A stretch of 64,000 nucleotides of DNA from an uncultured Methylomirabilota bacterium (GTDB lineage: Bacteria > Methylomirabilota > Methylomirabilia > Methylomirabilales > 2-02-FULL-66-22). Location of the stretch: assembly GCA_963705305.1 (NCBI GenBank), contig OY970067.1:1504001-1568000 (forward strand), in the 5' to 3' direction. The notes under the pieces were generated by a model that was not told where the DNA came from, made no database searches, and saw only the letters and a list, made by a program, of their open reading frames with translations. The position numbers were made by a program, and so were the translations under genes. Below are positions 5,426 through 18,094 of this stretch, in pieces (the first letter of the stretch is position 1; each line of letters begins with the position of its first letter).

Positions 5426-6528
5426 ATGGATCCCTGCTACCGCATTCAGGACGTTCGAGCAGCTCGAGACGCCGGCCCTGGTCTTCTACGAGGATCAGAT
5501 CCGCCGGAACATCGCCCACATGGGCGAGCGGCTGGGCGGCTACGCCCGCCTGCGGCCGCACATCAAGACCCACAAGTGCCGGGAGGTTCTCGACCTCCAG
5601 ATGGCGGCCGGCATCCAGCGCTTCAAGTGCGCCACCATCAAAGAGGCCGAGATGGCCGCGGGCGCCGGGGCAGCGGAGGTGCTGGTCGCGTATCCGGTGG
5701 TCGGCCCGATGGCGGGGCGGGTGGCGGCCCTGCAGAGACGGTACCCGCTCGTCCGGTTCGACGTCTCTGGCGGATGCGCCCGCGCTCATCCCGCCGCTGT
5801 CGCAGGCGGCGGCCAAAGAAGGGGTCGAGCTGGGAGTCATGGTGGACTTGAATGCCGGCCTGGATCGGACGGGCGTGGCCTCGCCGGCGGGGGCGGCGGC
5901 GCTGGCGCGGGCCATCCAGGACGCGCCCGGGCTGCGCTTCGCCGGGCTGCACGGCTACGGCAGCCGGCCGGCCCGCGGTGAGGCGGAAGAGCGGGAGCGG
6001 GTGTACCGGGACGCCATCCAAGCGACTGTGGCGATGCGACGTGGGCTGGAGGCCGCCGGCATCCCGGTGCCCCGCGTGACGGTCGGAAACTCGCTGGACT
6101 ATCACCTGGCGGCGGAGATGGATGGGGTGGACGAGGTGTCTCCGGGAACCTGGATCCTCTGGGACAAGGGGTACGAGGATCTGCTGCCCGGGCACTTCGC
6201 CTGGGCCGCCCTGGTGATCGGCCGGGTGATCAGCCGGCCGACAGCCAGCCTGTTCGCGGTGGATGCCGGCTATAAGTCCGTGTCGGCCGATCCCGCCATC
6301 CCGCATGCCCAGGTGATCTCCGTGCCAGGGAGCGAGGTGGTGGGGCGCTGGGAGGAGCATCTGCTGGTCCGCCTGCCCGACGCCTCGGCGGAGCCCACAG
6401 TCGGGACGCCGATCTACGTCGTCCCGGTCCACGTCTGCTCGACGGTGAACCTGTGGGACGAGGCCGTGGTGGTGAACGGGCAGGGGCAGGTGGCCGGCCG
6501 TTGGAAGATCGCCGCCCGCGGACACTGA
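5426..6528 (+). pseudogene. fold-type III PLP enzyme (D-threonine aldolase/D-serine dehydratase-like) with two +1 frameshifts
   Basis: MDPCYRIQDV | EQLETPAL..RPHIKTHK..KCATIKEAE..FDV | LADAP..DRTG..GLHGY..DAGYK..EEH..PVHVCSTVNL spans three frames; extra bases near 5455 and 5766. Confidence 0.8.
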
Positions 6529-6837
6529 GCATCGGTGTGAGCGGCTGACACGAGGGACGGAAGGCCAGGCACTCGCTCGCATCTGCGCGACATGATCACG
6601 GCACGGGAAACAGACGGGCGGGATCGAATTCCAGCGTGCGCCGGAAAGAACACTTGCAGGATTTCTTTGTACAGCCTGCCGAGTGATGCGGGCCCCGCGG
6701 CCGCACCCGTTGACAGCCCCATCCCTAGAACTTCTGTCTCTATGGACGGCGAATTTTCCCGCTTGACAGGATAATTCGCTGGTGATACGTGTAAAACTCC
6801 AATAAGAATTGGTGTAAGACTATATAAAGTATATTAC

Positions 6838-6847
6838 TGTAAATACA
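6838..6847 (+). promoter_or_regulatory. candidate GntR operator abutting the start codon
   Basis: TGTA-AA-TACA palindrome in an AT-rich upstream region; TTGACA at 6763-6768. Confidence 0.4.
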
Positions 6848-7492
6848 ATGACTTACAAAAAAGTAACGCGACATAACAAGATTTTTGAGACCATCCGCGA
6901 TCGGATCGTCTACATGGACTATCCCCCGGGAATGGGCCTGACCGAAAAAGAGCTCTGCCAGGAATTCAAAGTCAGTCGAACCCCCCTGCGAGAGGCGATT
7001 CGAAAGCTTGAGGAGATGAAGCTCGTCAACGTCATCCCTCGCTTTGGGACGTACGTTTCGCCTATTGATATCAATGAGATACGGTGCGCCTTCGAAGTCA
7101 AGATAAAGCTCGAGGGCCTGGCGGGAGAGCTGGCCGCCAAGCGCATTACCGCCGATAAGCTGGAGGAAATGAGCGGGCTGGTCGCGGATGCGGATCGGAT
7201 ATTGGAAGACGGTGAGCACCGAAGCCTCATCGGGCTGGATGCGCGCTTCCACGAGATCATTTATGTGGCTACGCAAAACACCATTCTCCAGGAATTTCTG
7301 GAGAACCTCCACAGCCGCTGCGCGCGCCTGTGGGGCTCATCGCTGAGCGAGGTCATCCCGAGCCGGGAGGTCATTGACCAGCTTCGCGGCATTCAGTCGG
7401 CCCTCCACGAAAAGGACGGCAAGAAAGCCGGGCAGCTCATGGAAGCCCACGTCCAATATTTCATCGACAGGATCAAGATGCAGCTCCTCTGA
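6848..7492 (+). CDS. GntR family regulator with FCD domain
   Basis: wHTH VSRTPLREAI; FCD motif DARFHEII...MEAHV. Confidence 0.93.
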   Translation: MTYKKVTRHNKIFETIRDRIVYMDYPPGMGLTEKELCQEFKVSRTPLREAIRKLEEMKLVNVIPRFGTYVSPIDINEIRCAFEVKIKLEGLAGELAAKRITADKLEEMSGLVADADRILEDGEHRSLIGLDARFHEIIYVATQNTILQEFLENLHSRCARLWGSSLSEVIPSREVIDQLRGIQSALHEKDGKKAGQLMEAHVQYFIDRIKMQLL

Positions 7493-7524
7493 CCAGCGGC
7501 GCTCGCGCCGAAGGAGGGAATCCT

Positions 7525-7929
7525 ATGCAGGTGCTCAACGTCAATGACCGGAAGGACACGAAGATCCAGACCTTCCCCTACAAGGGGAAGCCGCTCGAGG
7601 TCAAAGATGTCTGGATTCGATGGCTCTCCCAGGCGGGGCCGGATGGATCCCCGGAGTATGGGCTTCGGTTCTTCACCATCGGTCCATCGGGATTCATTCC
7701 GATCCACAACCACCTGTATCACCAGACCATGTACATCCTGACCGGCCGCATGAGCTGCGTGTGCCATGACCCCACGACCGACGAGGTCGTGGAGGAGAAG
7801 CTCGTGGGCCCCAACGACTTCATCTACGTGCCGAGCATGGAGCCTCACAGCATGAGGAATCTGAGCGACTCAGAGCCCGCGACGTTCCTGTGTTGTATTG
7901 CCAACGTGTACGAGGACGAGCGGGACTGA
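7525..7929 (+). CDS. cupin domain protein
   Basis: IPIHNH..HQTMYILTG, YVPSMEPHSMRN; RBS AAGGAGG. Confidence 0.88.
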   Translation: MQVLNVNDRKDTKIQTFPYKGKPLEVKDVWIRWLSQAGPDGSPEYGLRFFTIGPSGFIPIHNHLYHQTMYILTGRMSCVCHDPTTDEVVEEKLVGPNDFIYVPSMEPHSMRNLSDSEPATFLCCIANVYEDERD

Positions 7930-7947
7930 GAGGAAAGGAGACGAACC

Positions 7948-9108
7948 GTGAGAGTTGCGTCGCGATTGGAGGCTTTCCGAGCGTACTTGGGCACCGAGAT
8001 GAACGTGCGCCTCACCCGAATGCGCAGCGAAGGGCGGGACGTCATCAATCTCGGGCTGGGGGATCCCGATGTCACGCCCCCGCCCCACCTGCTGCATGCC
8101 CTGCAGGAGGCGGTGGGCGCCCCGGACCATCACCATTACCCCAGCTTCTATTCCAACCGGCCTCTCAAGGAGGCCATCGCCGGGTGGTACGGGAGGCGCT
8201 TCGCAGTCGAGCTGGATCCGGATACCGAAGTCCTTCCGCTCCTGGGCTCCAGCGAGGGGCTGTTCATCATCCACCTGTGCCTGCTGGACCCAGGCGACAC
8301 GGCCCTGGTGCCGGATCCCTGCTATCCCTCGTACGTGGCGGGGGTGAAGCTTGCCGGGGGCCAGGTGGAGCCGATCCCCCTGCTCCGGAAGAACGGATTT
8401 CTCCCGGATCTGGAGTCGATCCCGTCCGATGTTGCCAAGCGGGCCCGGATGATCTGGGTCAACTACCCGAATAACCCGACGGCGGCGGTGGCCCCGCCCG
8501 AATTCTACCGCCGGCTGGTGGCGTGGGCGAAGGCCGCCAACGTCATCGTCGTGCACGACAACCCGTATTCGGAGGTCGCATTCGACGGATACCGGGCACC
8601 CAGCTTCCTGCAGTTCCCCGGCGCCAAGGAGGTGGGAGTGGAGTTCCATTCCCTCTCGAAGAGCTACAACTGCTGCGGCTGGCGCACCGGGATGTTGGTG
8701 GGAAACAAGGATGTCATCGCCGGCATGGCCAAGATCAAGTCCCATTCCGACCGGGGGATGTACTACCCGATGCAGGTGGCCTCTACGGCGGCCCTGAACG
8801 GCCCGGTGGATTTCATGGCGGCTCGGAATGCAACATTCAAGGAGCGACGGGACATCGTGGTCAACGGCTTGCGCGCGGTCGGGCTGGACGTCGATCTGCC
8901 TCAGGCCACGTTCTACGTCTGGTCCACCATTCCGGCCGGGTTCATCTCCCAGGACTTCTGCTTCAAGGTGCTGGACACGATCAACGTGTGGATGATCCCC
9001 GGCTCCATGTATGGACAGTACGGCGAAGGGTACCTGCGCATCGCCTTGACCCATCCGGCGAAGCGCCTGGCGGAGGCCATGGCTCGGCTGAAGGAATTCT
9101 TGGGATAG
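7948..9108 (+). CDS. class I/II PLP aminotransferase (LL-DAP aminotransferase-like)
   Basis: NLGLGDPD, NYPNNPT, HDNPY, SLSKSY..GWRTG, GEGYLRIAL. Confidence 0.92.
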   Translation: MRVASRLEAFRAYLGTEMNVRLTRMRSEGRDVINLGLGDPDVTPPPHLLHALQEAVGAPDHHHYPSFYSNRPLKEAIAGWYGRRFAVELDPDTEVLPLLGSSEGLFIIHLCLLDPGDTALVPDPCYPSYVAGVKLAGGQVEPIPLLRKNGFLPDLESIPSDVAKRARMIWVNYPNNPTAAVAPPEFYRRLVAWAKAANVIVVHDNPYSEVAFDGYRAPSFLQFPGAKEVGVEFHSLSKSYNCCGWRTGMLVGNKDVIAGMAKIKSHSDRGMYYPMQVASTAALNGPVDFMAARNATFKERRDIVVNGLRAVGLDVDLPQATFYVWSTIPAGFISQDFCFKVLDTINVWMIPGSMYGQYGEGYLRIALTHPAKRLAEAMARLKEFLG

Positions 9109-9300
9109 CCGCCGGATGCGGCCCGGGGATCACCGTCCCGAGGGGATCTCAGGTGCGCCGCCGCGGCTCGCCGAGCTCACCACACGGATCGTCACACCGG
9201 AAAGGCTGGCGGAGCGGCAGATGGCCACGCGGGAGGAGGCCGCGCCCGCGTGGCCGGGGCCTCGGGGGCCGGCAACGGCGGGGCGGCAGGCGGAGGATTC

Positions 9301-10704
9301 ATGGCGTCCACGATCCTGGAGTCGGAGTTCTACGGCGATGGCTGGAGCACCCCGGAGATGCGCGCGGTCTTCGACGATCGGCGTCGCTACCAGCGCTGGC
9401 TGGACATCGAGGCGGCCCTGGCCCGCGTTCAGGGCGACCTGGGTGTGATCCCTGCCGAGGCGGCCCGGGAAATCGCGCGCCAGGCCAGGCTGGAGAACAT
9501 CGATCTCGACCGGCTCAAGGCCGAGCTCCGGCAGACGCAGCATTCCCTGGTCCCCCTGCTGCGCGGGCTGCAACGCGCCTGCGCCGGCGGCCTGGGCGAA
9601 TACGTCCACTACGGCCCCACGACCCAGGATATCGAGGATACCGGCGCCGTGCTCGAGCTCCGGGACGCGCTGGGGATCCTCCTGCGGGACCTGCGCGCCA
9701 TCGAGGCTGCGCTGATGGAGCTGAGCCTCCGGCACCGCGACACGACGATGTGCGGCCGGACCCACGGCCAGCAGGCCCTGCCCATCACCCTGGGGTTGAA
9801 GTTCGCGGTGTGGGTCAGCGAGATTCGGCGCCACATCGAACGCTTCAAAGAGATGAAGCCGCGCCTGTTCGTGGGGATGCTTCACGGCGGGGCCGGGTCG
9901 ATGGCTGGTCTGGGGCCGAGGGCCATGGAGACCATTGCGGGGCTGATGCGGGCATTGGACCTGGGTGTGCCCGACGTGGGGTGGGGCAACGCCCGAGACA
10001 ACCTGGCGGAGTATGCCACCCACGTGGCCATGGCCGCCGGGACCATCGGGAAGCTGGTCAACGAAATCTTCGAGCTGGGTCGAACCGAGATCGGAGAGTT
10101 CGCCGAGGCGCTGCCCGAGGGCTACGTGGGCAGCAGCACCATGCCGCACAAACGCAACCCGGAAATCTGCGAGCAGGTGGTGATGCTGTCCCGCGTCATT
10201 CGCGCCCATGCCCTGGTGGCCATGGAGGCCATCCAGGCTGCCAATGAGCGGGACAGCCGCAGCTGGCGCACGGACTGGTGGTCCCTGCCGGAGTGCTCCA
10301 TGCTGTTCGCGGCCATGCTGGCCATGACCAAGCGGCTGGTCATGACGATGGAGATCCATGAGGACAGGCTTGCCGCCAACCTGGACCGGCTCCGCGGACT
10401 GCTCTTGTCCGAGGGGCTCATGTTCCAGCTCGGCGAGAAGATCGGAAAGCAGACGGCGCATCACGTCATCGGCAAGGCGTGCCTGGAGGCGCACCGGAGT
10501 GGCCGGTCTCTTCGCGAGGTCCTCCAGACCCTGCCGGAGGCGTCGGCGCATCTTTCTCCCCAAGAGATTGACGGGCTGCTGGACTACCGGAAGCACATCG
10601 GGTTCGCCCGGGAGCTGGTGGATCAGGTCTGTCGGACGTTGGCGGCCGCTCGGAAAACCGACGGGGCGATTCTGAGATACTGCGGGCAAGCTGCGGAGGG
10701 CTGA
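9301..10704 (+). CDS. adenylosuccinate-lyase-like enzyme (fumarase/aspartase superfamily)
   Basis: HYGPTTQDI, GRTHGQ, signature GSSTMPHKRNP; RBS GGAGG before 9301. Confidence 0.9.
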   Translation: MASTILESEFYGDGWSTPEMRAVFDDRRRYQRWLDIEAALARVQGDLGVIPAEAAREIARQARLENIDLDRLKAELRQTQHSLVPLLRGLQRACAGGLGEYVHYGPTTQDIEDTGAVLELRDALGILLRDLRAIEAALMELSLRHRDTTMCGRTHGQQALPITLGLKFAVWVSEIRRHIERFKEMKPRLFVGMLHGGAGSMAGLGPRAMETIAGLMRALDLGVPDVGWGNARDNLAEYATHVAMAAGTIGKLVNEIFELGRTEIGEFAEALPEGYVGSSTMPHKRNPEICEQVVMLSRVIRAHALVAMEAIQAANERDSRSWRTDWWSLPECSMLFAAMLAMTKRLVMTMEIHEDRLAANLDRLRGLLLSEGLMFQLGEKIGKQTAHHVIGKACLEAHRSGRSLREVLQTLPEASAHLSPQEIDGLLDYRKHIGFARELVDQVCRTLAAARKTDGAILRYCGQAAEG

Positions 10705-12144
10705 ATGGCGGCGGCGGGCAACGCATCCGATGGCGGTCCACACCGCTCCCTGACGAGGACGCTGGCCGAGTTCGCGGCCGCGCTCCGGCTGTCTGATCTC
10801 GATCCGGCCGTGGCGGACGCGGCGCGGCAGGCCGTGTTGGATTGCGTCGGATGCGGTGTGGCGGGGGGGGCGGACCCTGCGGTGAGCCGCCTGCAGGCGA
10901 CCCTGCTCAAGTCGGGAGAGGTCGGGATGTTGCCCGTCTTCGGCGGCGCCGCGAGGTTTGCGCCCCGGGCCGCGGCGCTCGTGAATGGAAGTCTGGCCCA
11001 CGCACTGGAGATGGACGACACGCACTCCTTTTCCAGCGTACACGCCGGAGGTCCCATCGTGGCCGCCGTGCTGGCCGCCGGCTACAGCGGGGTAATCCCG
11101 GGTGCGCGACTCCTGGAGGGGGTGGTGACGGGCTACGAGATCGCCTGCCGCCTGGGGATGGCCATCCGGGGTGCCACCCCTTACCATCGGGGCTTTCATC
11201 CCACAGGCATATGTGGTGTGTTCGGAGCCGCCTCGGCCTGCGCCAAGATCCTGGATTTGGACCCTGGCGGGTTCCAGAGCGCCTGGGGAATCGCCGGGAG
11301 CATGGCGGGCGGCCTTATGAGCTATCTGCAGAACGGGGCTTGGACCAAGAAGTTGCAGCCGGGCTGGGCGGCGCAATCCGGCCTGCTGGCGGCAGTTCTG
11401 GCCACGGAAGGCTATCTGGGGCCGGATGACATCTTCACCGGTCGGTTCAATTTCTGCCGGGCCTATGCTGACGCCTGGGATCCGGCGATCTTCGTGCAGG
11501 AACTGGGATCGCGCTTCGAGATCTGCCGAATGTCCTTCAAGCGGTTTGCCTGTTGCCGAACCATCCACGGGCCAATCACGGCGGCGCTGAAGATCCGGCA
11601 GCAGCCCGGATTCGATGCGGCGTGCGTGGAGCAGGTAGAAGCGCGCATCCCCGACGAGGACCTCGATCTGGTGGTGGAGCCCATCGAGGCGAAGGTCCAC
11701 CCTCGCACGATCGTGGAGGCCCAGTTCAGCATGCCGTTCGGTATTGCCCTGGCCCTGGTGCGCGGAGATGCCATGCCGGGCGACTATCGCGAGGAGAGCC
11801 TGCGGGACCCTTCGATTCAGAGGATTGCGGCGGCATTCCGGTATGTGGTCGATGGGGCCTACACGCGGCGGCGGCCGCGGGAGTTCCCGTGCTGCCTCCG
11901 GGTCCGCGCGGGCGGAAGATGGTACGCGGCCGAGGTGGATGCCCCCCTGGGCGACTGTACCAACCCCCTTTCCGCGGTGGAGCTCCTGGGGAAGTTCGAC
12001 GCTCTGACCCGTCCCGTGCTGGGACCGGCCCCCTCCGAGGCCTTGCGGGCAGCTGTCCAGCGCCTCGGAACAGGTGGATCGGCCGACCGGGCCAATCGCA
12101 TCCTCGATCTCGCGGCGCTGCCAGCAGACGGGCGCCCGTCTTGA
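10705..12144 (+). CDS. MmgE/PrpD family protein
   Basis: AHALEMDDTH..VHAG, GFHPT, KRFACCRTIH, AQFSMPF. Confidence 0.92.
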   Translation: MAAAGNASDGGPHRSLTRTLAEFAAALRLSDLDPAVADAARQAVLDCVGCGVAGGADPAVSRLQATLLKSGEVGMLPVFGGAARFAPRAAALVNGSLAHALEMDDTHSFSSVHAGGPIVAAVLAAGYSGVIPGARLLEGVVTGYEIACRLGMAIRGATPYHRGFHPTGICGVFGAASACAKILDLDPGGFQSAWGIAGSMAGGLMSYLQNGAWTKKLQPGWAAQSGLLAAVLATEGYLGPDDIFTGRFNFCRAYADAWDPAIFVQELGSRFEICRMSFKRFACCRTIHGPITAALKIRQQPGFDAACVEQVEARIPDEDLDLVVEPIEAKVHPRTIVEAQFSMPFGIALALVRGDAMPGDYREESLRDPSIQRIAAAFRYVVDGAYTRRRPREFPCCLRVRAGGRWYAAEVDAPLGDCTNPLSAVELLGKFDALTRPVLGPAPSEALRAAVQRLGTGGSADRANRILDLAALPADGRPS

Positions 12145-12259
12145 CCTGCCGATGCCGGGATCGCATTGTCCTCCCCGGCGGCGAGTGCTGGACAGGATCT
12201 CGAAGATCCTGCGATATGGAAGGTCTTCTGCCGGGATGCAGGGGAGGAAAGGAGAAGGA

Positions 12260-13861
12260 ATGATGCGAAGGACTTTCGCGGGGATCGCCATCGGCGCGAT
12301 CGTGGTTCTTGTCGGCCTGCTTCCCCAGCTCGGGAACGCCCAGGAGCTGGCCAAGGAGCAGCATATCCGAATCGCCATTCCTGTGGCCGACATTCGCAGT
12401 TTGGACCCGGCCTACGCCACGCTCACCGGCGAGAGCGAGATTGTCGGTGAGATCACCAATGGCCTACTTCGGTTTCCCCACGGCAAGCTCAACGTGGAGA
12501 AAATCGAGGGTGACCTGGCCGAGCGGTGGGAGGTCTCACCCGACGGCCTGACCTGGACCTTTCACCTGCACAAGGGGGTGAGGTGGCACAAGGGCTTCGG
12601 GGAAGTCTCGGCCGAAGACGTGAAGTTCACCTTCGATCGAATCATGGATCCCAAGAGCGGATCGCCCTGGATCAAGAAGTACGCCAACGTCCGGGCCGTA
12701 GAAGTCGTGGACCCGCTTACAGTGCGCATCCGGCTCAAAAAAGCCGACCCGTTCTTCGCCCTGGACGTCATCGGCTATCATGGCGGCCAGATCGTTTGCA
12801 AGAAGGCGGTGGAGAAGTTCGGCAAGGACATCGCCTTCAATCCCATCGGCACGGGACCGTTCGTGTTCGAGTCCTACACCGCGGGACAGGGAGTCATCCT
12901 CAAGCGAAATCCCACATACTTCCGCGGCGCTCCCATCCTGGAGACCGTGGAGTACCTCTTCATGCCAGACGACAATAGCGTCATGCTGGCCCTGCAGAAG
13001 GGGGAGATCGATCTGGGGGCGGGCGTGCGCCGGAAGGAGTGGGCCGAGCGGGCAGCCAAGCTGGGTCTGGTGCTCATGCCCCCCAACCCGCCGCAGCAGA
13101 GCATCCTTGTGTTCAACATGACGCGGAAGCCGCTGAACGATCTCCGGGTCCGGCAGGCTTTGGCCTACGCCCTGGACAGGAACGTCTTTGTCGACCTCGT
13201 GGGCCCGGTGCTGGGTGGACCCCAGATCGGTCCCATCCCCCCCGGCTACTTCGGGTACACCGAGGAGGGGATGGACCCCTACAATTACAATCCGGAAAAG
13301 GCCAAGAAGCTTTTGGCGGAGGCCGGATATCCCAATGGATTCGACCTGGGGGACGTGAACGTCGCCAGATCCTGGGACTACCTGGAGCCCATGAAGATCG
13401 TCCAGGAGCAGTGGCGTAAGATCGGAGTGACGTTCAATCTCAAGGTGGTGGACCACCCGACCTATCACAAGCTCATCCGCGAGGATGTCAACCCCGTGGT
13501 CATCTACGGCGGCGTGCGTCTGCCCGTGGCCAGCTCACTGTTGACCGAGTTCTACAGCAAGGATGCCATCGTGGGGAAGCCGACGGCGATCACCAATTTC
13601 TCGCACTACGGGGAAGTGATCCCGGGCATCGACGAATACCTGCAGAAGGCGGCAGCGACGACGAATCTGGCGGAGAGAAAGAAGTTCTTCATGTTGGCCG
13701 AGCAGAAGATCAACAAGGACCTGCCCGCCTATCCCCTGTTCCTCAACCGGGTGGCCATGACGCGCCAGAAGTGGGTGGACCTGGGGTATGACACCAATCC
13801 GTACGAGACCCTGTACTACGTCATCGAGGTGACCGAGAAGACGAAGCTCCTGAAACATTGA
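12260..13861 (+). CDS. ABC transporter substrate-binding protein, family 5 (peptide/nickel type)
   Basis: Signal peptide; LAERWEVSPDGLTWTFHL, GTGPF, RVRQALAYALDR. Confidence 0.93.
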   Translation: MMRRTFAGIAIGAIVVLVGLLPQLGNAQELAKEQHIRIAIPVADIRSLDPAYATLTGESEIVGEITNGLLRFPHGKLNVEKIEGDLAERWEVSPDGLTWTFHLHKGVRWHKGFGEVSAEDVKFTFDRIMDPKSGSPWIKKYANVRAVEVVDPLTVRIRLKKADPFFALDVIGYHGGQIVCKKAVEKFGKDIAFNPIGTGPFVFESYTAGQGVILKRNPTYFRGAPILETVEYLFMPDDNSVMLALQKGEIDLGAGVRRKEWAERAAKLGLVLMPPNPPQQSILVFNMTRKPLNDLRVRQALAYALDRNVFVDLVGPVLGGPQIGPIPPGYFGYTEEGMDPYNYNPEKAKKLLAEAGYPNGFDLGDVNVARSWDYLEPMKIVQEQWRKIGVTFNLKVVDHPTYHKLIREDVNPVVIYGGVRLPVASSLLTEFYSKDAIVGKPTAITNFSHYGEVIPGIDEYLQKAAATTNLAERKKFFMLAEQKINKDLPAYPLFLNRVAMTRQKWVDLGYDTNPYETLYYVIEVTEKTKLLKH

Positions 13862-13876
13862 GCGGCACCGTGTGGC

Positions 13877-13908
13877 GGTGGGAGCCTCCCGGGCGGGAAG
13901 CTCCCACC
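13877..13908 (+). other. intercistronic hairpin after the SBP gene
   Basis: GGTGGGAGCCTCCCG / CGGGAAGCTCCCACC near-perfect stem, no U tract. Confidence 0.5.
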
Positions 13909-13983
13909 CACCGCACCGGACACACTTCTTGCTCGGAGGGCGAGGCGGTTGGCTATCCTTCCGGGTAATGCTGGAGATATGTC

Positions 13984-14925
13984 GTGCTGAGGTTTGCACT
14001 GCGCCGAATCCTCTGGACGCTCCCCCAGATCCTCTTCGTCTTCACCATCGTGTTCTTCGTCATGCGGGTGGTGGCCGGCGATCCGGCCCAAGTGATCCTT
14101 GGTGAATACGCCAACGCGGAGGCGCTGCGGAATCTGCGGGAGTCGCTGGGGCTGAACGAGCCGCTCCTGGTCCAGTATGGCACGTCGCTGTTCAGCCTGC
14201 TGCATGGAGACTTCGGGCGGTCAATGATCAACAATCGGCCCATCGCTCCGGAAATCCTCGAGGTCCTGCCGTACACCATCGAGCTGACACTCGCCGCCAT
14301 CATCATCGGGGTCGTGGTCGGCCTTCCCCTCGGCATCGTGTCCGCGCTCCGGCGCAACACCATGGCGGACTACCTCCTCCGCGTCTTCTCGCTCACCGGG
14401 CTCTCGATGCCCGCGTTTTATCTCGGCGTCGTGCTTCTGATCCTATTCGCCGTGAAGCTCGGCTTCTTTCCCATCATCGGGTTCCGCGAAGGGAGCGGCC
14501 TGTTGGAGCAGATGTACTACCTTGTCCTGCCGGCATTGAGCCTAGGCCTGACCATGGCCGCCTTCACGACCCGGATGAGCCGGTCGAGCATGCTGGAGCG
14601 CCTGGGCGCCGACTACGTCCGCACGGCGCGGGCCAAGGGGCTTCCCGAGTATAAGGTCATCTTCAAGCACGCCCTCAAGGACTCCCTGATTCCGATCGTC
14701 ACGGTCATCGGCGTCTACGTGGGAGTCCTGATGGGCGGGTCCATCCTGACCGAGATGGTCTTCAACCGGCCCGGCCTGGGGAAATTTCTGATCGGGGCCA
14801 TTCAGCAGCGGGACTACAACGCCATCCAGTCGGGGCTGGTGATCTACGCGGGGATCGTGGTGTTCGTCAACTTGGGGGTGGATCTCGTCTACGGCGTCAT
14901 CGACCCGCGCATCCGGTACGAGTAG
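13984..14925 (+). CDS. ABC permease (DppB/OppB-like)
   Basis: DYVRTARAKGL, TEMVFNRPGLG, IDPRIRY. Confidence 0.93.
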   Translation: MLRFALRRILWTLPQILFVFTIVFFVMRVVAGDPAQVILGEYANAEALRNLRESLGLNEPLLVQYGTSLFSLLHGDFGRSMINNRPIAPEILEVLPYTIELTLAAIIIGVVVGLPLGIVSALRRNTMADYLLRVFSLTGLSMPAFYLGVVLLILFAVKLGFFPIIGFREGSGLLEQMYYLVLPALSLGLTMAAFTTRMSRSSMLERLGADYVRTARAKGLPEYKVIFKHALKDSLIPIVTVIGVYVGVLMGGSILTEMVFNRPGLGKFLIGAIQQRDYNAIQSGLVIYAGIVVFVNLGVDLVYGVIDPRIRYE

Positions 14926-14935
14926 AAGGGCGACC

Positions 14936-15778
14936 ATGGCCATTGCGAGGCAGAGAGCTCTCCTGTCGTTCCGGCGCAACAAGGTGGCGGTCTTCGGCCT
15001 TGTCCTGGTGGTCGTCCTGCTTGTCGTCGCCATCTTCGCCGGCCTGCTGTCCCCCTACGACGTGCGCGAGCAGAATGTCCGCCAGCGGTACTCCCCCGCA
15101 TCGGCCGCCCACTGGCTCGGCACGGACGAGCTGGGCCGGGACGTTCTCTCCCGGATCCTCCTCGGGTCCAGGGTCTCGCTCTTCGTGGGGCTGAGTTCGG
15201 TGGCGGCGGCCATGGTCCTCGGGCTGTGGCTCGGGGTGCTCGCCGGTTATAGAGGCGGGCGGTCGGACCGGATGATCACCTGGATCGTCGACAGCCTCAT
15301 GGCGTTCCCGTCCCTGCTGCTGGGCCTCCTGGTGGTCAGCGCCATCGGACCCGGACTGCGGAACACCATCATCGCCATCGCGCTGGCGTTCGTTCCCCGC
15401 TTTGCGCGGGTCGCGCGAGGACAGACGATCGTTCTCCGCGAGTACGAGTTCATCCTGGCCGAAAAGGCTGCCGGCGCCTCGGACACGCGCATCATCCTCC
15501 GCCATATCCTGCCGAACCTTGTCGGCGAGATCGTGGTCATGGGCAGCCTCTGGATCTCCACGGCGATCATCATCGAGTCCAGCCTGAGCTTCCTGGGCCT
15601 GGGCGTGCAGCCGCCCACGCCTTCCTGGGGGATGATGATCAAGTCCGGAGTGGACGAGATCCTCATCGCTCCCTGGTTGGCGGTGTATCCGGGCGTGGCC
15701 ATCTCCCTCGCCGTCCTGGCCTTTAATTTGGTCGGGGACGGCATGCGCGACGTGCTGGATCCGAAGCTCCTGCGCTAG
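14936..15778 (+). CDS. ABC permease (DppC/OppC-like)
   Basis: HWLGTDELGRD, RHILPN, LSFLGLG, GDGMRDVLDP. Confidence 0.93.
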   Translation: MAIARQRALLSFRRNKVAVFGLVLVVVLLVVAIFAGLLSPYDVREQNVRQRYSPASAAHWLGTDELGRDVLSRILLGSRVSLFVGLSSVAAAMVLGLWLGVLAGYRGGRSDRMITWIVDSLMAFPSLLLGLLVVSAIGPGLRNTIIAIALAFVPRFARVARGQTIVLREYEFILAEKAAGASDTRIILRHILPNLVGEIVVMGSLWISTAIIIESSLSFLGLGVQPPTPSWGMMIKSGVDEILIAPWLAVYPGVAISLAVLAFNLVGDGMRDVLDPKLLR

Positions 15779-15824
15779 GGGCTTATTCCCTGTAATCACG
15801 GCGGACATCCGCAGGACAGCTCCG

Positions 15825-17000
15825 ATGGACTATCCGTTCGACACGGTCGTCAATCGCCGGAACACCGACTGCATAAAGTGGGACGATATCCAGCGCCGCT
15901 ACAGGGTCAGCGGGGAGGATCTGCTGCCGTTCTGGGTGGCCGACATGGAGTTCCGGCCGCCCGAGGCCGTGGTGGAGGCCATGGTCCGCCGCGCCCGGCA
16001 CGGCATCTGCGGGTATCCGGCGGGCCTGGACGGCTACCATGCCGCCATCCGCGGCTGGCTGCTCCGCCGCCACGGCTGGGAGATTCAGGAGGACTGGATT
16101 CTCTCCACGCCCGGGGTGGTCTCGGCCGTCAATCTGCTGATTCGAACCCTCACCACGCCCGGGGACGGCGTCGTCCTGCAGCCGCCCGTGTACTACCCGT
16201 TCTTCCGCGGGGTGGAGGAGAATGGCTGCCGGCTGGTGGAGAACCCGCTCCGCTTCGACGGCCGGCGCTACCGCATGGACTTCGACGATCTGCGGGCCAA
16301 ACTGCGCCAGGCCAAGCTGCTCATCCTGTGCAGCCCCCACAATCCGGTGGGACGGGTGTGGACGTTGGAGGAGATCATGACGCTGGCCTGCCTGTGCCTG
16401 GAATCGGGGGTCCTGGTCATCTCCGACGAGATTCACTTCGACCTGGTCTTCTCCGGCCACGCCCACACGGTGTTTGCCTCGCTGTCGGAGGAGCTGGCCC
16501 AGCGCTCGGTGGTGTGCACCTCGCCCAGCAAGAGCTTCAACCTGCCCGGCCTGCATCCCGGGATGGTCTTCATCCCCAACCCGCAGCTCCGCGGCGAGTT
16601 CCAGCACACGCTGCGGGCCTGCGGCTTGCCGGGCCCCAATGTCTTTTCCCTGGAGGCGGTCAAGGCCGCCTACGACCACGGGGAGCCGTGGCTGAAGGAG
16701 CTGCTAACGTACCTGGAGCAGAACGCCGCCGTCCTGGAGCGCGCTGTGGCGGAGGAAATGCCGCGTCTTCACCTGGTGCGGCCCGAGGGCACCTACCTGG
16801 CCTGGCTGGATTGCCGGGAGCTGGGCATGGATCCCCCCAGCCTGGAGCGATGGCTCCTCGAGGAGGTCCGGCTGGTCCTGAATCAGGGCTACACGTTCGG
16901 TTCGGGGGGAGAGGGCTTCGTCCGGATCAACTTCGCCTGCCCGCGGGCCATGCTGGAGGAAGGGCTGGCCCGCCTGGCCCGCGCCGTCCGGGCCCTCTAG
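15825..17000 (+). CDS. PatB/MalY family PLP-dependent C-S lyase
   Basis: WVADMEF, CSPHNPVGRVW, SDEIH, SPSKSFNLPG, EGTYLAWLD. Confidence 0.92.
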   Translation: MDYPFDTVVNRRNTDCIKWDDIQRRYRVSGEDLLPFWVADMEFRPPEAVVEAMVRRARHGICGYPAGLDGYHAAIRGWLLRRHGWEIQEDWILSTPGVVSAVNLLIRTLTTPGDGVVLQPPVYYPFFRGVEENGCRLVENPLRFDGRRYRMDFDDLRAKLRQAKLLILCSPHNPVGRVWTLEEIMTLACLCLESGVLVISDEIHFDLVFSGHAHTVFASLSEELAQRSVVCTSPSKSFNLPGLHPGMVFIPNPQLRGEFQHTLRACGLPGPNVFSLEAVKAAYDHGEPWLKELLTYLEQNAAVLERAVAEEMPRLHLVRPEGTYLAWLDCRELGMDPPSLERWLLEEVRLVLNQGYTFGSGGEGFVRINFACPRAMLEEGLARLARAVRAL

Positions 17001-17196
17001 CAGGCTCCTGAAAAAGGCCCATCTGCCGGGTACCCATCCCGAGGGATGGGTGACGCCGCCTTGCCGTTCGACAGGCCCTTCGACAAGCTCAGGGCGGTGA
17101 GCACAGTCGAACCGCTCACGGTCCCGAGAGAAGTCGAGGGACATCTGGACCTTTTTGAGCAGCCTGGGAGGAACGGGTTTCTCGGCAGCCTGCTAG
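16997..17196. mobile_element. ~200 bp MITE-like non-autonomous element flanked by CTAG
   Basis: Ends CTAGCAGGCT... / ...AGCCTGCTAG; the left end also pairs with an inner copy CATCTGGACCTTTTTGAGCAGCCTG; internal hairpins. Confidence 0.75.
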
Positions 17197-17202
17197 GGGC
17201 CG

Positions 17203-18094
17203 CTACGGCTTCGCGCTCCAAGTGACGAAGGTATCCATCGACTTGATCGCCGCCCGGATGTCCGTGTAGACGGGCAAGCCGTGCCCTTCCAGGATGGGCT
17301 TGCTGCCCCGTCGCGCCAGGTCGAAGAACTGCCGCCCCTCGCCGGGATCCAGCCCTTCGATGTACAGGGCGATTACATCGCTTCCGGCATCCGCCTCGAA
17401 ATAGGCCAGGCGATCGGCGATCTTGACGTCATACTTGTTGCCGAAGCTGACGATGGTCCGGAACAGCCGCGCGTTGTGCAGCTTGTCGAGGGCGGTCACC
17501 GCGAACGCGCCGCTCTGGGTGAGCAGCACCGTGTTGCTGTGGCCCGAGGATTTCACCTCCAGCCGCTTCTCTTCGATGAACAGGGTGTTTAGGCCCGGCC
17601 GGTCCGCCGTGGGCGCCGTAAACACGCCCATGCAATTCGGGCCGATCACGCGGACGCCCGGCGGCAGCACATCCGCCAGCTCCCGGGCAAACTCCGGACA
17701 GGCGATGTTGGCCGGCATTCCCGAGTTCAGGAAGCCGCGAAGGTCCGGCCTCTGGGCCGGCGTTTAATAGCTCGACACCTCCTCCTGCATCCGTGCCATC
17801 ACGAATTGCACGAAGAGCGGGTCGTCCTGCTCGATCACCTTGACGCCGCCGACCCGCTGCTTGTGGGCGATTTGTGGCGAGACGACCTTGACTACGAGCT
17901 TCCGGCCGAGAGGGGCCAGGCGTGCGGCATTCACCTCGCGCGGGTCGTTGACAAAGACCCACCGGGGAACCTGAAGCCCCAGCTCCGCGAGCACCTGATA
18001 CACCTCGAACTCATACAGCGCCCGCCGCCCGTCCGCAGCCGCAGTCCTCAAGATCTCGTTGATTCGGCTCCAGGCCGTCGGCGGAGATGGGCAC
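17203..18094 (-). pseudogene. acetate/acyl-CoA ligase (ADP-forming) remnant
   Basis: ATP-grasp start (KVVSPQIAHKQRVGGV) ends in a stop; then RVIGPNCMG, SQ/TQSGA-type and SFGNKYDV pieces, then a short C-terminal tail; frameshift near 18068. Confidence 0.75.

What the first reader, a model, noticed from the sequence alone, without database searches (positions are those of the whole stretch)
6848..17000. Candidate catabolic operon for succinylated amino-acid or thioether adducts
Seen: nine co-oriented genes (GntR, cupin, aminotransferase, adenylosuccinate-lyase-like, MmgE/PrpD, SBP, two permeases, PatB), with the lyase and PrpD genes abutting and no purine genes nearby. Known: an MmgE/PrpD epimerase paired with a fumarase-superfamily lyase degrades iminodisuccinate, and similar components act in S-(2-succino)cysteine salvage (YxeQ; ASL-like lyase). 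Inference: import, epimerisation and fumarate release, then C-S cleavage or transamination of the freed amino acid. I do not recognise this combination with a cupin and a family-5 importer as a described pathway.
Basis: partly seen in the sequence, partly recalled or inferred. Interest (0 to 1): 0.7.

Follow-up and report, generated by a model that had tools for sequence, protein, structure and literature searches.

The report
Importer-epimerase-lyase operon for fumarate adducts
A nine-gene bacterial operon, eight genes of which recur together in a distant lineage, most likely imports a fumarate-damaged amino acid such as succinylated cysteine, corrects its handedness and cuts fumarate off again; this is a variant of a known repair route, and its substrate is inferred, not tested.

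Summary
Observation confirmed. Nine co-oriented genes; lyase and MmgE/PrpD abut; no purine genes; no ABC ATPase.
- The lyase is not the genome's PurB, and the aminotransferase is not its DapL: both exist elsewhere above curated cut-offs.
- By tree and motifs the lyase lies outside PurB and PcaB, near S-(2-succino) lyase (2SL) and XcbD, and far from EDDS lyase.
- MmgE keeps the His/Tyr pair of epimerase-type members.
- Eight of nine genes recur in one genome of another phylum, with a different lyase sub-clade and no PatB. Lyase and MmgE orthologues share contigs in four more cases.
- GntR-cupin-aminotransferase is a separate, wider module (12 of 32 cupin loci carry the aminotransferase).
- The binding protein is closest to opine-binding MoaA/SacA, which keeps an N-linked substrate alive.

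Best reading (0.45): uptake, epimerisation and fumarate elimination from a succinyl-cysteine-type thioether without a dedicated acetyltransferase, then cysteine breakdown. No substrate was tested. The scan reported similar lyase-PrpD operons before on other DNA (e1-2444119, e1-1461029; unchecked). New variant of a known kind; interest 0.5.

The parts
6848..7492 (+). GntR/FadR-family regulator (GntR + FCD); head of the GntR-cupin-aminotransferase module
   Evidence: Pfam; orthologues at 66-72% beside the cupin in 7 of 32 cupin loci
7525..7929 (+). TM1459-like metal-binding cupin; His61, His63, Gln67, His108, Cys123 and Cys124 invariant; function unknown
   Evidence: model pLDDT 93.9; TM1459 Z 16.3, rmsd 2.4 over 111 residues
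7948..9108 (+). Class I PLP aminotransferase related to DapL/AlaC but not DapL; Arg269 where the genome's DapL has Ser
   Evidence: below all cut-offs shown (487/507); true DapL elsewhere; alignment
9301..10704 (+). Aspartase/fumarase-superfamily lyase near the 2SL/XcbD branch; keeps His155 (GRTH) and SSTMPHKRNP
10705..12144 (+). MmgE/PrpD protein of epimerase type (His113/Tyr160, plus His99, Glu102, His165, Lys215, Lys279)
   Evidence: mechanism from PMC12290011
12260..13861 (+). Family-5 solute-binding protein of the MoaA/SacA-like (opine-binding) subfamily; start inferred
13984..14925 (+). OppB/DppB-type ABC permease
   Evidence: 72% to L205
14936..15778 (+). OppC/DppC-type ABC permease; no ATPase follows
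15825..17000 (+). PatB-family PLP C-S lyase; the genome's only close PatB; absent from the syntenic cluster
   Evidence: TIGR04350 471/340; B. subtilis PatB 375 bits

Best explanation
A GntR-controlled catabolic operon for a small S-(2-succino) thioether, most likely S-(2-succino)cysteine (2SC) or a close relative. Steps, all inferred: (1) the family-5 binding protein and two permeases import the adduct, borrowing an ATPase encoded elsewhere; (2) the MmgE protein inverts the C2 centre of the succinyl group with its His113/Tyr160 pair, so both diastereomers of a non-enzymatic fumarate adduct become usable; (3) the lyase eliminates fumarate and frees cysteine; (4) PatB, and possibly the aminotransferase-cupin pair, remove the cysteine at once and pull the unfavourable lyase equilibrium forward, in place of the acetylation and deacetylation used by the yxe/2SL route; (5) fumarate enters central metabolism. 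Shown here: gene content, conservation, family placement and catalytic residues. Not shown: any substrate, activity or expression.
For: Lyase. Best NCBIfam match is XcbD, a cysteine-adding enzyme (506/600), above PcaB (378/595) and PurB (300/326). In the 37-row tree, PurB and PcaB form separate 100-supported clades; the lyase's clade sits in a loosely supported (81) group with context-labelled 2SL (L035, L112, L291) and XcbD (L292, L293). It shares His81-Ser82 and ERD..W(R/K).(D/E)W with those, where PcaB has NS and ERSLGLWH and PurB has HD and ERD..SSxER. 2SL enzymes release fumarate from 2SC and N-acetyl-2SC with Kc of about 0.005-0.007 (PMC9706529). MmgE. All characterised members act on a C4 1,4-dicarboxylate at C2, and the extra catalytic Tyr marks the epimerases (PMC12290011). 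His113 and Tyr160 align with the IDS-epimerase residues and are invariant in 22 rows. Linkage. Lyase and MmgE orthologues share contig length and source in 4 of the 16 MmgE orthologues, one pair with consecutive accessions MBN1828072.1/MBN1828073.1. L205 carries 8 of 9 genes with a lyase from another sub-clade (50% versus 58-74% for the rest). An MmgE gene lies in 7 of 51 loci whose lyase is at least 39% identical and in 0 of 108 below that. PatB closes the operon. A class II fumarase-like gene is in the genome (43%).
Against: The binding protein's closest characterised relatives bind or are predicted to bind N-substituted amino acids (MoaA 303 bits versus 168 for the next PDB hit; pTiEU6 SacA 39%). 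The yxe loci use a family-3 amino-acid ABC system instead. The lyase passes no curated cut-off and is only 38-41% identical to 2SL- and XcbD-type proteins, against 35-37% to PcaB; the uniting fork has support 81. Trans-aconitate decarboxylase Tad1 scores 272 bits, so this branch also does non-thiol chemistry. Characterised 2SLs prefer N-acetyl-2SC 60- to 320-fold, and no YxeL-like gene was found in the genome. An ArsN1-type amino-acid N-acetyltransferase lies about 1.7 kb upstream on the other strand, so acetylation is not excluded. PatB is not in L205, and G283's best PatB-like match is 31% on another contig. The cupin occurs without the aminotransferase in 20 of 32 loci. One orthologous lyase (64%) sits directly after an MttB-family methyltransferase on a 3-kb contig (L105), which this reading does not explain.
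Confidence: 0.45

Rival explanations
1. The substrate is an N-linked imino acid (opine-like), for example N-(1,2-dicarboxyethyl)-glutamate or another N-substituted aspartate. MmgE epimerises it as IDS epimerase does, the lyase acts as a C-N lyase giving fumarate plus an amino acid, and the aminotransferase deaminates that amino acid.
For: The binding protein is of the MoaA/SacA subfamily and shares its VVDHPTYH, YG..R.P.A and TNF.H blocks. SacA is the predicted succinamopine-binding protein (PMC6733357). IDS epimerase is among the top PDB hits for MmgE (123 bits). The aminotransferase has an invariant Arg269 that could bind an acidic side chain (inferred from recalled aspartate-aminotransferase numbering). 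A Thalassospira plasmid has MmgE, an opine dehydrogenase-family gene and this SBP family together, though that MmgE is only 24% identical.
Against: The known N-succinyl chelator lyase (EDDS lyase) is remote (50.6 bits). The two characterised relatives on this branch do C-S chemistry. PatB has no role in this scheme. The same SBP subfamily also occurs with an M81 peptidase, so 39-42% identity does not fix the ligand.
Confidence: 0.2
2. A mosaic: a generic GntR-cupin-aminotransferase module has picked up an importer-lyase-MmgE cassette and, in this genome only, PatB. The parts share a promoter but handle different substrates.
For: The module appears with TTT, TAXI-TRAP, DctP or LIV-type transporters and URO-D-like, ATC-hydrolase-like, RidA or FAD-oxidoreductase genes, with no lyase or MmgE in the fetched stretches. 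The cupin is in 29 of 401 genomes of G283's phylum but 2 of 251 of the window's own. L204, a sister genome of L205, has the module and the lyase but a TAXI-TRAP system and no MmgE in about 53 kb fetched around it.
Against: The eight-gene set recurs in two phyla with a changed order and a replaced lyase, which suggests selection for the combination. This rests on one genome.
Confidence: 0.17
3. The C4 skeleton is not a fumarate-cysteine adduct but another 2-substituted succinate (mercaptosuccinate, sulfosuccinate, an itaconate/mesaconate or aconitate adduct), or the lyase is a Tad1-like decarboxylase.
For: Tad1 272 bits. MmgE members include methylsuccinate isomerase and cis-aconitate decarboxylase. 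XcbD uses sulfoacrylate rather than fumarate (NCBIfam name; PMC9457059 passages). The sister-clade locus L028 has lyase, DcuC, MFS and MmgE with no amino-acid enzyme except a divergent M20 peptidase.
Against: A peptide/opine-type importer, an aminotransferase and PatB point to an amino-acid-containing substrate. MmgE keeps the epimerase Tyr.
Confidence: 0.13
4. Degradation of the chelators IDS or EDDS by the known epimerase plus C-N lyase route.
For: MmgE resembles IDS epimerase; the EDTA-binding EppA is also a family-5-like protein (PMC7312458).
Against: The lyase is far from EDDS lyase (E 1e-12). EppA is only 18% identical to MoaA, the SBP's nearest solved relative.
Confidence: 0.05

Closest known systems
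2SL variant of the yxe/scm S-(2-succino)cysteine pathway (Enterococcus italicus, Dickeya dadantii; Hillmann et al. 2022, PMC9706529)
   Same: Lyase class I enzyme on the same broad branch with shared motifs; an MmgE/PrpD partner (YxeQ, function stated as unknown in that paper); an ABC importer.
   Different: No YxeL acetyltransferase or YxeP deacetylase in the cluster; family-5 rather than family-3 binding protein; no ATPase; adds GntR, cupin, aminotransferase and PatB; lyase only 39-41% identical to context-labelled 2SLs and in its own clade; MmgE 26% identical to the YxeQ-like protein of L035.
Iminodisuccinate epimerase plus C-N lyase (Agrobacterium BY6; PDB 2HP0/2HP3) and EDDS lyase (Chelativorans BNC1; PDB 6G3H group)
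   Same: Epimerase-then-eliminate logic; His/Tyr two-base pair conserved in MmgE.
   Different: The lyase is remote from EDDS lyase (50.6 bits). The IDS C-N lyase sequence itself was not available to test.
XcbD 3-sulfopropionylcysteine synthase of bacterial coenzyme M biosynthesis (PMC9457059; NF052536)
   Same: Best-scoring NCBIfam model for the lyase (506/600); shared motifs; a PLP enzyme nearby.
   Different: Below cut-off; separate clade; XcbD has SITMPHKVNP against SSTMPHKRNP here; no phosphosulfolactate synthase match in the genome.
Opine importers MoaA (PDB 6TFQ/6TFS/6TFX) and SacA/LecA of succinamopine/leucinopine Ti plasmids (PMC6733357)
   Same: Same family-5 binding-protein subfamily (about 39% to SacA), with shared motif blocks.
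   Different: Those loci cleave opines with flavin dehydrogenases and carry ATPases; here a lyase and an epimerase stand in their place.
TM1459 cupin, and more distantly the MTXu-5P methylsulfurylase Rru_A2000
   Same: Cupin_2 fold; metal ligands and the active-site Cys position of TM1459 are kept (Cys123 aligned with Cys106).
   Different: Gln at the third metal ligand; an extra invariant Cys124; Rru_A2000 is only a weak match (E 0.004 by profile; Foldseek rank 31).

Membership tests
PurB adenylosuccinate lyase | TIGR00928 score above 326 and placement with PurB | tested here: not met
   300 bits; outside the PurB clade; the genome's PurB at C1:4806856-4808151 scores 523. Caveat: the cut-off leaks, since 2SL-like L035 and P0019 pass it.
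PcaB 3-carboxy-cis,cis-muconate cycloisomerase | Model cut-offs; Trp at the GRT(H/W) position; PcaB clade | tested here: not met
   378/595 and 269/356; His155 retained; outside the PcaB clade (PcaB labels assigned from organism and motif, not assay)
2SL / yxe pathway | Lyase class I gene clustered with at least three of YxeK/L/MNO/P/Q | tested here: not met
   Only a YxeQ-family gene is present; no YxeL match in the genome; best YxeP-like match 28%, elsewhere; the transporter is of another family
2SL / yxe pathway | Lyase groups with 2SL sequences | tested here: inconclusive
   Shared motifs, but a separate 99-supported clade joined to 2SL/XcbD only by an 81-supported fork; references were context-labelled, not the two assayed enzymes
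2SL / yxe pathway | Fumarate release from N-acetyl-2SC or 2SC | not testable with these tools
   Needs an enzyme assay
XcbD (CoM biosynthesis) | NF052536 above 600 and xcbB/C/E context | tested here: not met
   506 bits; no XcbB match in the genome
EDDS / IDS C-N lyase | Close homology to EDDS lyase | tested here: not met
   50.6 bits, E 1.2e-12
EDDS / IDS C-N lyase | Homology to the IDS C-N lyase of Agrobacterium BY6 | not tested
   Sequence not obtained
MmgE/PrpD epimerases (IDS epimerase, methylsuccinate isomerase) | Catalytic His plus the extra catalytic Tyr, and the dicarboxylate-binding His/Glu/His/Lys/Lys | tested here: met
   His113, Tyr160, His99, His165, Lys215 and Lys279 invariant, Glu102 nearly invariant in 22 rows; aligned to 2HP0. 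Mapping to the residues in PMC12290011 is by motif spacing; the isomerase sequence was not aligned.
2-methylcitrate dehydratase PrpD | PrpD equivalog score | tested here: not met
   26 bits against cut-off 950 for the only PrpD model that matched
DapL LL-diaminopimelate aminotransferase | NF006756/TIGR03540 cut-offs | tested here: not met
   487/507 and 479/593; the genome's DapL scores 624 and 610
PatB C-S lyase | TIGR04350 cut-off | tested here: met
   471/340
Cupin methylsulfurylase (Rru_A2000) | Close sequence or structure match and catalytic cysteine | tested here: inconclusive
   E 0.004-0.008 by sequence; Foldseek E 3e-8, TM 0.64; the alignment at the cysteine was not displayed and the primary paper was not held

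The most novel reading that the evidence does not exclude
The operon is an acetylation-independent 2SC degradation pathway that would assign the missing function of YxeQ-type proteins (2SC epimerase). In addition, its aminotransferase-cupin pair is an undescribed desulfuration module. The aminotransferase would turn cysteine or an S-substituted cysteine into the mercaptopyruvate, and the cupin, with metal plus invariant Cys123/Cys124, would strip the sulfur to give pyruvate and an enzyme-bound persulfide or mixed disulfide, as the cupin methylsulfurylase does with an alpha-thio-ketone. That would give a function to a conserved cupin family with hundreds of members.
Probability: 0.12. Interest if true: 0.75.

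Novelty: new variant of a known kind. Interest (0 to 1): 0.5.

Why it matters
Fumarate damage to thiols is widespread. The two described bacterial salvage routes both start with N-acetylation, and the role of their MmgE/PrpD gene (YxeQ) was stated as unknown in 2022 (PMC9706529). This cluster offers a fixed lyase-MmgE pair with intact catalytic residues, so the epimerase hypothesis and an acetylation-free route can be tested with two purified proteins. If the substrate is instead an opine-like imino acid, it would be a lyase-based, non-redox opine cleavage. Either way the chemistry type is known; the substrate and the cupin-aminotransferase function are the open parts.

Tried and rejected
No close lyase orthologue was found in: 40 relatives (best 46%); 250 other genomes of the own phylum (best 48%); 251 genomes of G042's phylum (none at E<=1e-125); or 301 genomes of G044's phylum searched with P0019 (none). 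These are samples, not absence. Order and class searches around G283 held only 2 genomes. Viral contigs gave no relative of P0019. Plasmid searches gave no MmgE orthologue (best about 40%) and no cupin orthologue. The promoter/terminator scan was at chance level (1 promoter versus 1.8 expected; 6 terminators versus 5.5). Cluster GC (0.646) is within the genome range (23rd percentile), so composition gives no support for transfer; only the patchy distribution does. A DddK-like DMSP-lyase role for the cupin was considered (Z 14.4) and set aside because the position I take to match DddK Tyr64 is Met69 (mapping recalled). Rru_A2000 was not among the 50 rows. Literature searches found no paper describing this gene combination, an anaerobic lyase-PrpD 2SC route, or a YxeQ activity. 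The library lacks most subscription papers: Niehaus 2018, Warlick 2012 and Erb 2012 were not held, and Matthews 2022 and the MoaA structure paper were not seen. No supplements were opened.
Full report
Observation. Gaps are 0-192 bases and the lyase stop abuts the MmgE start. The lyase most likely starts at 9301 (467 aa) and the binding protein near 12260 (533 aa). There is no ABC ATPase; the genome has 4 OppD/OppF-like pairs for 14 matches to each permease, so sharing is plausible. Other notes of this scan call it Methylomirabilota (unchecked), which fits same-class genomes grouping with a Rokuibacteriota record.

Not housekeeping copies. The genome's PurB is at C1:4806856-4808151 (TIGR00928 523/326) and its DapL at C1:2859310, in what I read from ORF starts as a lysine-biosynthesis cluster (624/507). 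The cluster lyase and aminotransferase pass none of the cut-offs listed.

The lyase. NCBIfam ranks XcbD (506/600) and PRK08937 (504/626) first, then PcaB (378/595), PurB (300/326) and nitrosuccinate lyase (272/650). PDB hits are a fumarate lyase (309 bits), PcaB (280) and Tad1 (272); the EDDS lyase entries score 50.6 (6G3H is EDDS lyase per PMC6973171 passages). I built a 145-row FastTree (162 locus lyases were subsampled below 39% identity and 48 database proteins added) and a 37-row IQ-TREE with context-labelled references. The labels were yxe-type loci (L035: lyase, GNAT-like, ABC, amidohydrolase, MmgE; L112; L291) and CoM loci (L292, L293). PurB and PcaB each form 100-supported clades without the query. 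The query sits in a 98-supported clade of orthologues (58-86% identity), sister to a clade from Aminobacterium, Pseudodesulfovibrio, Treponema and Duodenibacillus. The fork joining these to 2SL and XcbD has support 81 only. It keeps His155 and SSTMPHKRNP, and shares His81-Ser82 and ERD..W(R/K).(D/E)W with 2SL and XcbD rather than the PcaB or PurB forms. From PMC9706529 I read the abstract, introduction, results and discussion parts: 2SL cleaves N-acetyl-2SC 60-320 times more efficiently than 2SC, the equilibrium favours the adduct, and YxeQ is of unknown function.

The MmgE protein. Sixteen database proteins at 49-71% form a distinct group before scores drop from 458 to 341 bits. His99, His113, Tyr160, His165, Lys215 and Lys279 are invariant and Glu102 nearly so in 22 rows, which include 4 outgroup rows. 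His113 and Tyr160 align with the His and Tyr of IDS epimerase (its residue numbers are recalled). PMC12290011 (passages and part of the discussion) states that all characterised members act at C2 of a C4 dicarboxylate and that the epimerases have the additional Tyr. An epimerase role is therefore the best inference, but the Tyr is also present in the outgroup rows, so it does not name the substrate.

Conservation. G283:C168 (L205), from the phylum of a MAG titled Deltaproteobacteria bacterium (probably Desulfobacterota; inferred), carries GntR 69%, cupin 70%, aminotransferase 74%, MmgE 58%, SBP 68%, permeases 72% and 74% and lyase 50% in one orientation, with the lyase moved to the end, no PatB and no ATPase. 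Its lyase belongs to a different sub-clade, which reads as replacement. The sister genome G322 (L204) has the module, RidA, an Asd-like dehydrogenase, a PPC protein, a TAXI-TRAP system, one permease and the lyase. Lyase and MmgE orthologues share contig length and source in 4 of 16 cases (25147, 26260, 11821, 8114), one confirmed by consecutive accessions. Across 159 scanned lyase loci, MmgE is present in 7 of 51 with a lyase at 39% or more and 0 of 108 below (similar mean locus length; kin are not independent). In the own phylum no close lyase orthologue was found in 250 other genomes and the cupin in 1 of 250. The cluster is therefore a patchy acquisition, although GC content does not show it.

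The front module. The cupin was found in 29 of 401 sampled genomes of G283's phylum. Of 32 cupin loci outside the window, 12 have the aminotransferase (60% or more) within 3.5 kb and 7 have the GntR; 5 of the 20 negatives end within 1 kb of the cupin. Neighbours vary: TTT, TRAP and LIV-type transporters, URO-D-like, ATC-hydrolase-like, FAD oxidoreductase, RidA and PALP genes (57 selected ORFs scanned). The cupin folds like TM1459 (Z 16.3) with His61, His63, Gln67, His108, Cys123 and Cys124 invariant in 35 rows. A weak match to Rru_A2000, a cupin that removes a methylthio group from an alpha-thio-ketone (PMC5893883 and PMC4334135 passages), suggests but does not show sulfur removal from a mercaptopyruvate. 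The aminotransferase keeps the PLP lysine (Lys238) and has Arg269 in all 13 module copies, where DapL has Ser.

The importer. The binding protein's best solved relative is the 6TFQ/6TFS/6TFX group (303 bits; next 168). 6TFX is MoaA (PMC7312458 Table 4); its ligand mannopinic acid is recalled. On plasmids the subfamily includes the pTiEU6 protein that by gene order is SacA, the predicted succinamopine-binding protein (39%; PMC6733357 passages), but also a copy beside an M81 peptidase. This is the main evidence against an S-linked substrate.

Mechanism and odds. Best reading (0.45): import, C2 epimerisation, fumarate elimination from a succinyl-cysteine-type thioether, and immediate removal of cysteine by PatB (471/340) or the aminotransferase-cupin pair, without the YxeL/YxeP steps (no YxeL-like match; an ArsN1-type acetyltransferase lies upstream on the other strand, unrelated to the L035 GNAT). 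Rivals: N-linked opine-like imino acid (0.20); mosaic of independent modules (0.17); another substituted succinate or decarboxylation (0.13); IDS/EDDS (0.05). Every enzymatic step is inferred.

Novelty. It works like the 2SL/yxe and IDS routes but fails membership of both. Ten literature searches found no description of this combination (listed under Tried and rejected), within a library that lacks most subscription papers. This scan earlier reported lyase-PrpD operons with fumarase and malic enzyme, one also with a C-S lyase, on other DNA. One shares words with the sister-clade lyase P0019. I could not fetch those loci, so they are leads and not support. Verdict: new variant of a known kind, interest 0.5.

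Noticed in passing
window about 5430-6528 (+): A D-threonine-aldolase/BhcC-like PLP enzyme gene directly upstream of the cluster is split over two frames, with the hand-over near 5770-5800; a real frameshift or an assembly error. An intact paralogue lies at C1:4435672-4436841.
   Followed up: partly
window 4674-about 5195 (-): ArsN1 family A N-acetyltransferase (NF040503 194/170); no such gene was noted in the syntenic L205 cluster.
   Followed up: partly
window about 17026-17200: A ~170-bp palindromic repeat element right after PatB has 159 blastn matches in the genome at E<=1e-5, the best at 91-97% identity; REP/MITE-like.
   Followed up: partly
window 17203-17718 (-): Short fragment of an ADP-forming acyl-CoA synthetase (Succ_CoA_lig domain); a further piece of such a gene seems to lie near 17800-18000.
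   Followed up: no
window 6815-6850: AT-rich stretch running straight into the GntR ATG with no clear ribosome-binding site; similar AATA(C/T)TATAA-like stretches precede several GntR orthologues. Possible operator or leaderless start.
   Followed up: partly
L105:45-1514 and 1564-2943: An MttB-family (trimethylamine methyltransferase) gene directly precedes a 64%-identical lyase orthologue; unexplained.
   Followed up: no
L028:9998-15690: Duodenibacillus operon: sister-clade lyase, DcuC carrier, MFS and MmgE, with a divergent M20 peptidase and no acetyltransferase; an independent lyase-MmgE pairing.
   Followed up: partly
L258, L259, L261, L263-L265, L267, L269: The cupin is repeatedly followed by a URO-D-family gene and near ATC-hydrolase-family genes. 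The window's genome has a 72% URO-D orthologue at C1:4398806-4399732 and an ATC-hydrolase-like gene at C1:3343000.
   Followed up: partly
L295:6090-11271: Paraburkholderia plasmid locus: GntR, lyase, dicarboxylate symporter and class II fumarase; another uncharacterised fumarate-releasing cassette.
   Followed up: no
L287:5774-10482: Thalassospira plasmid: MmgE next to an opine dehydrogenase-family gene and a SacA-like binding protein; possible opine epimerase.
   Followed up: no
L035, L291, P0019 against TIGR00928: 2SL-like lyases can pass the PurB cut-off (L035 385, P0019 330) and L291's is annotated purB, so automated annotation mislabels this branch.
   Followed up: yes
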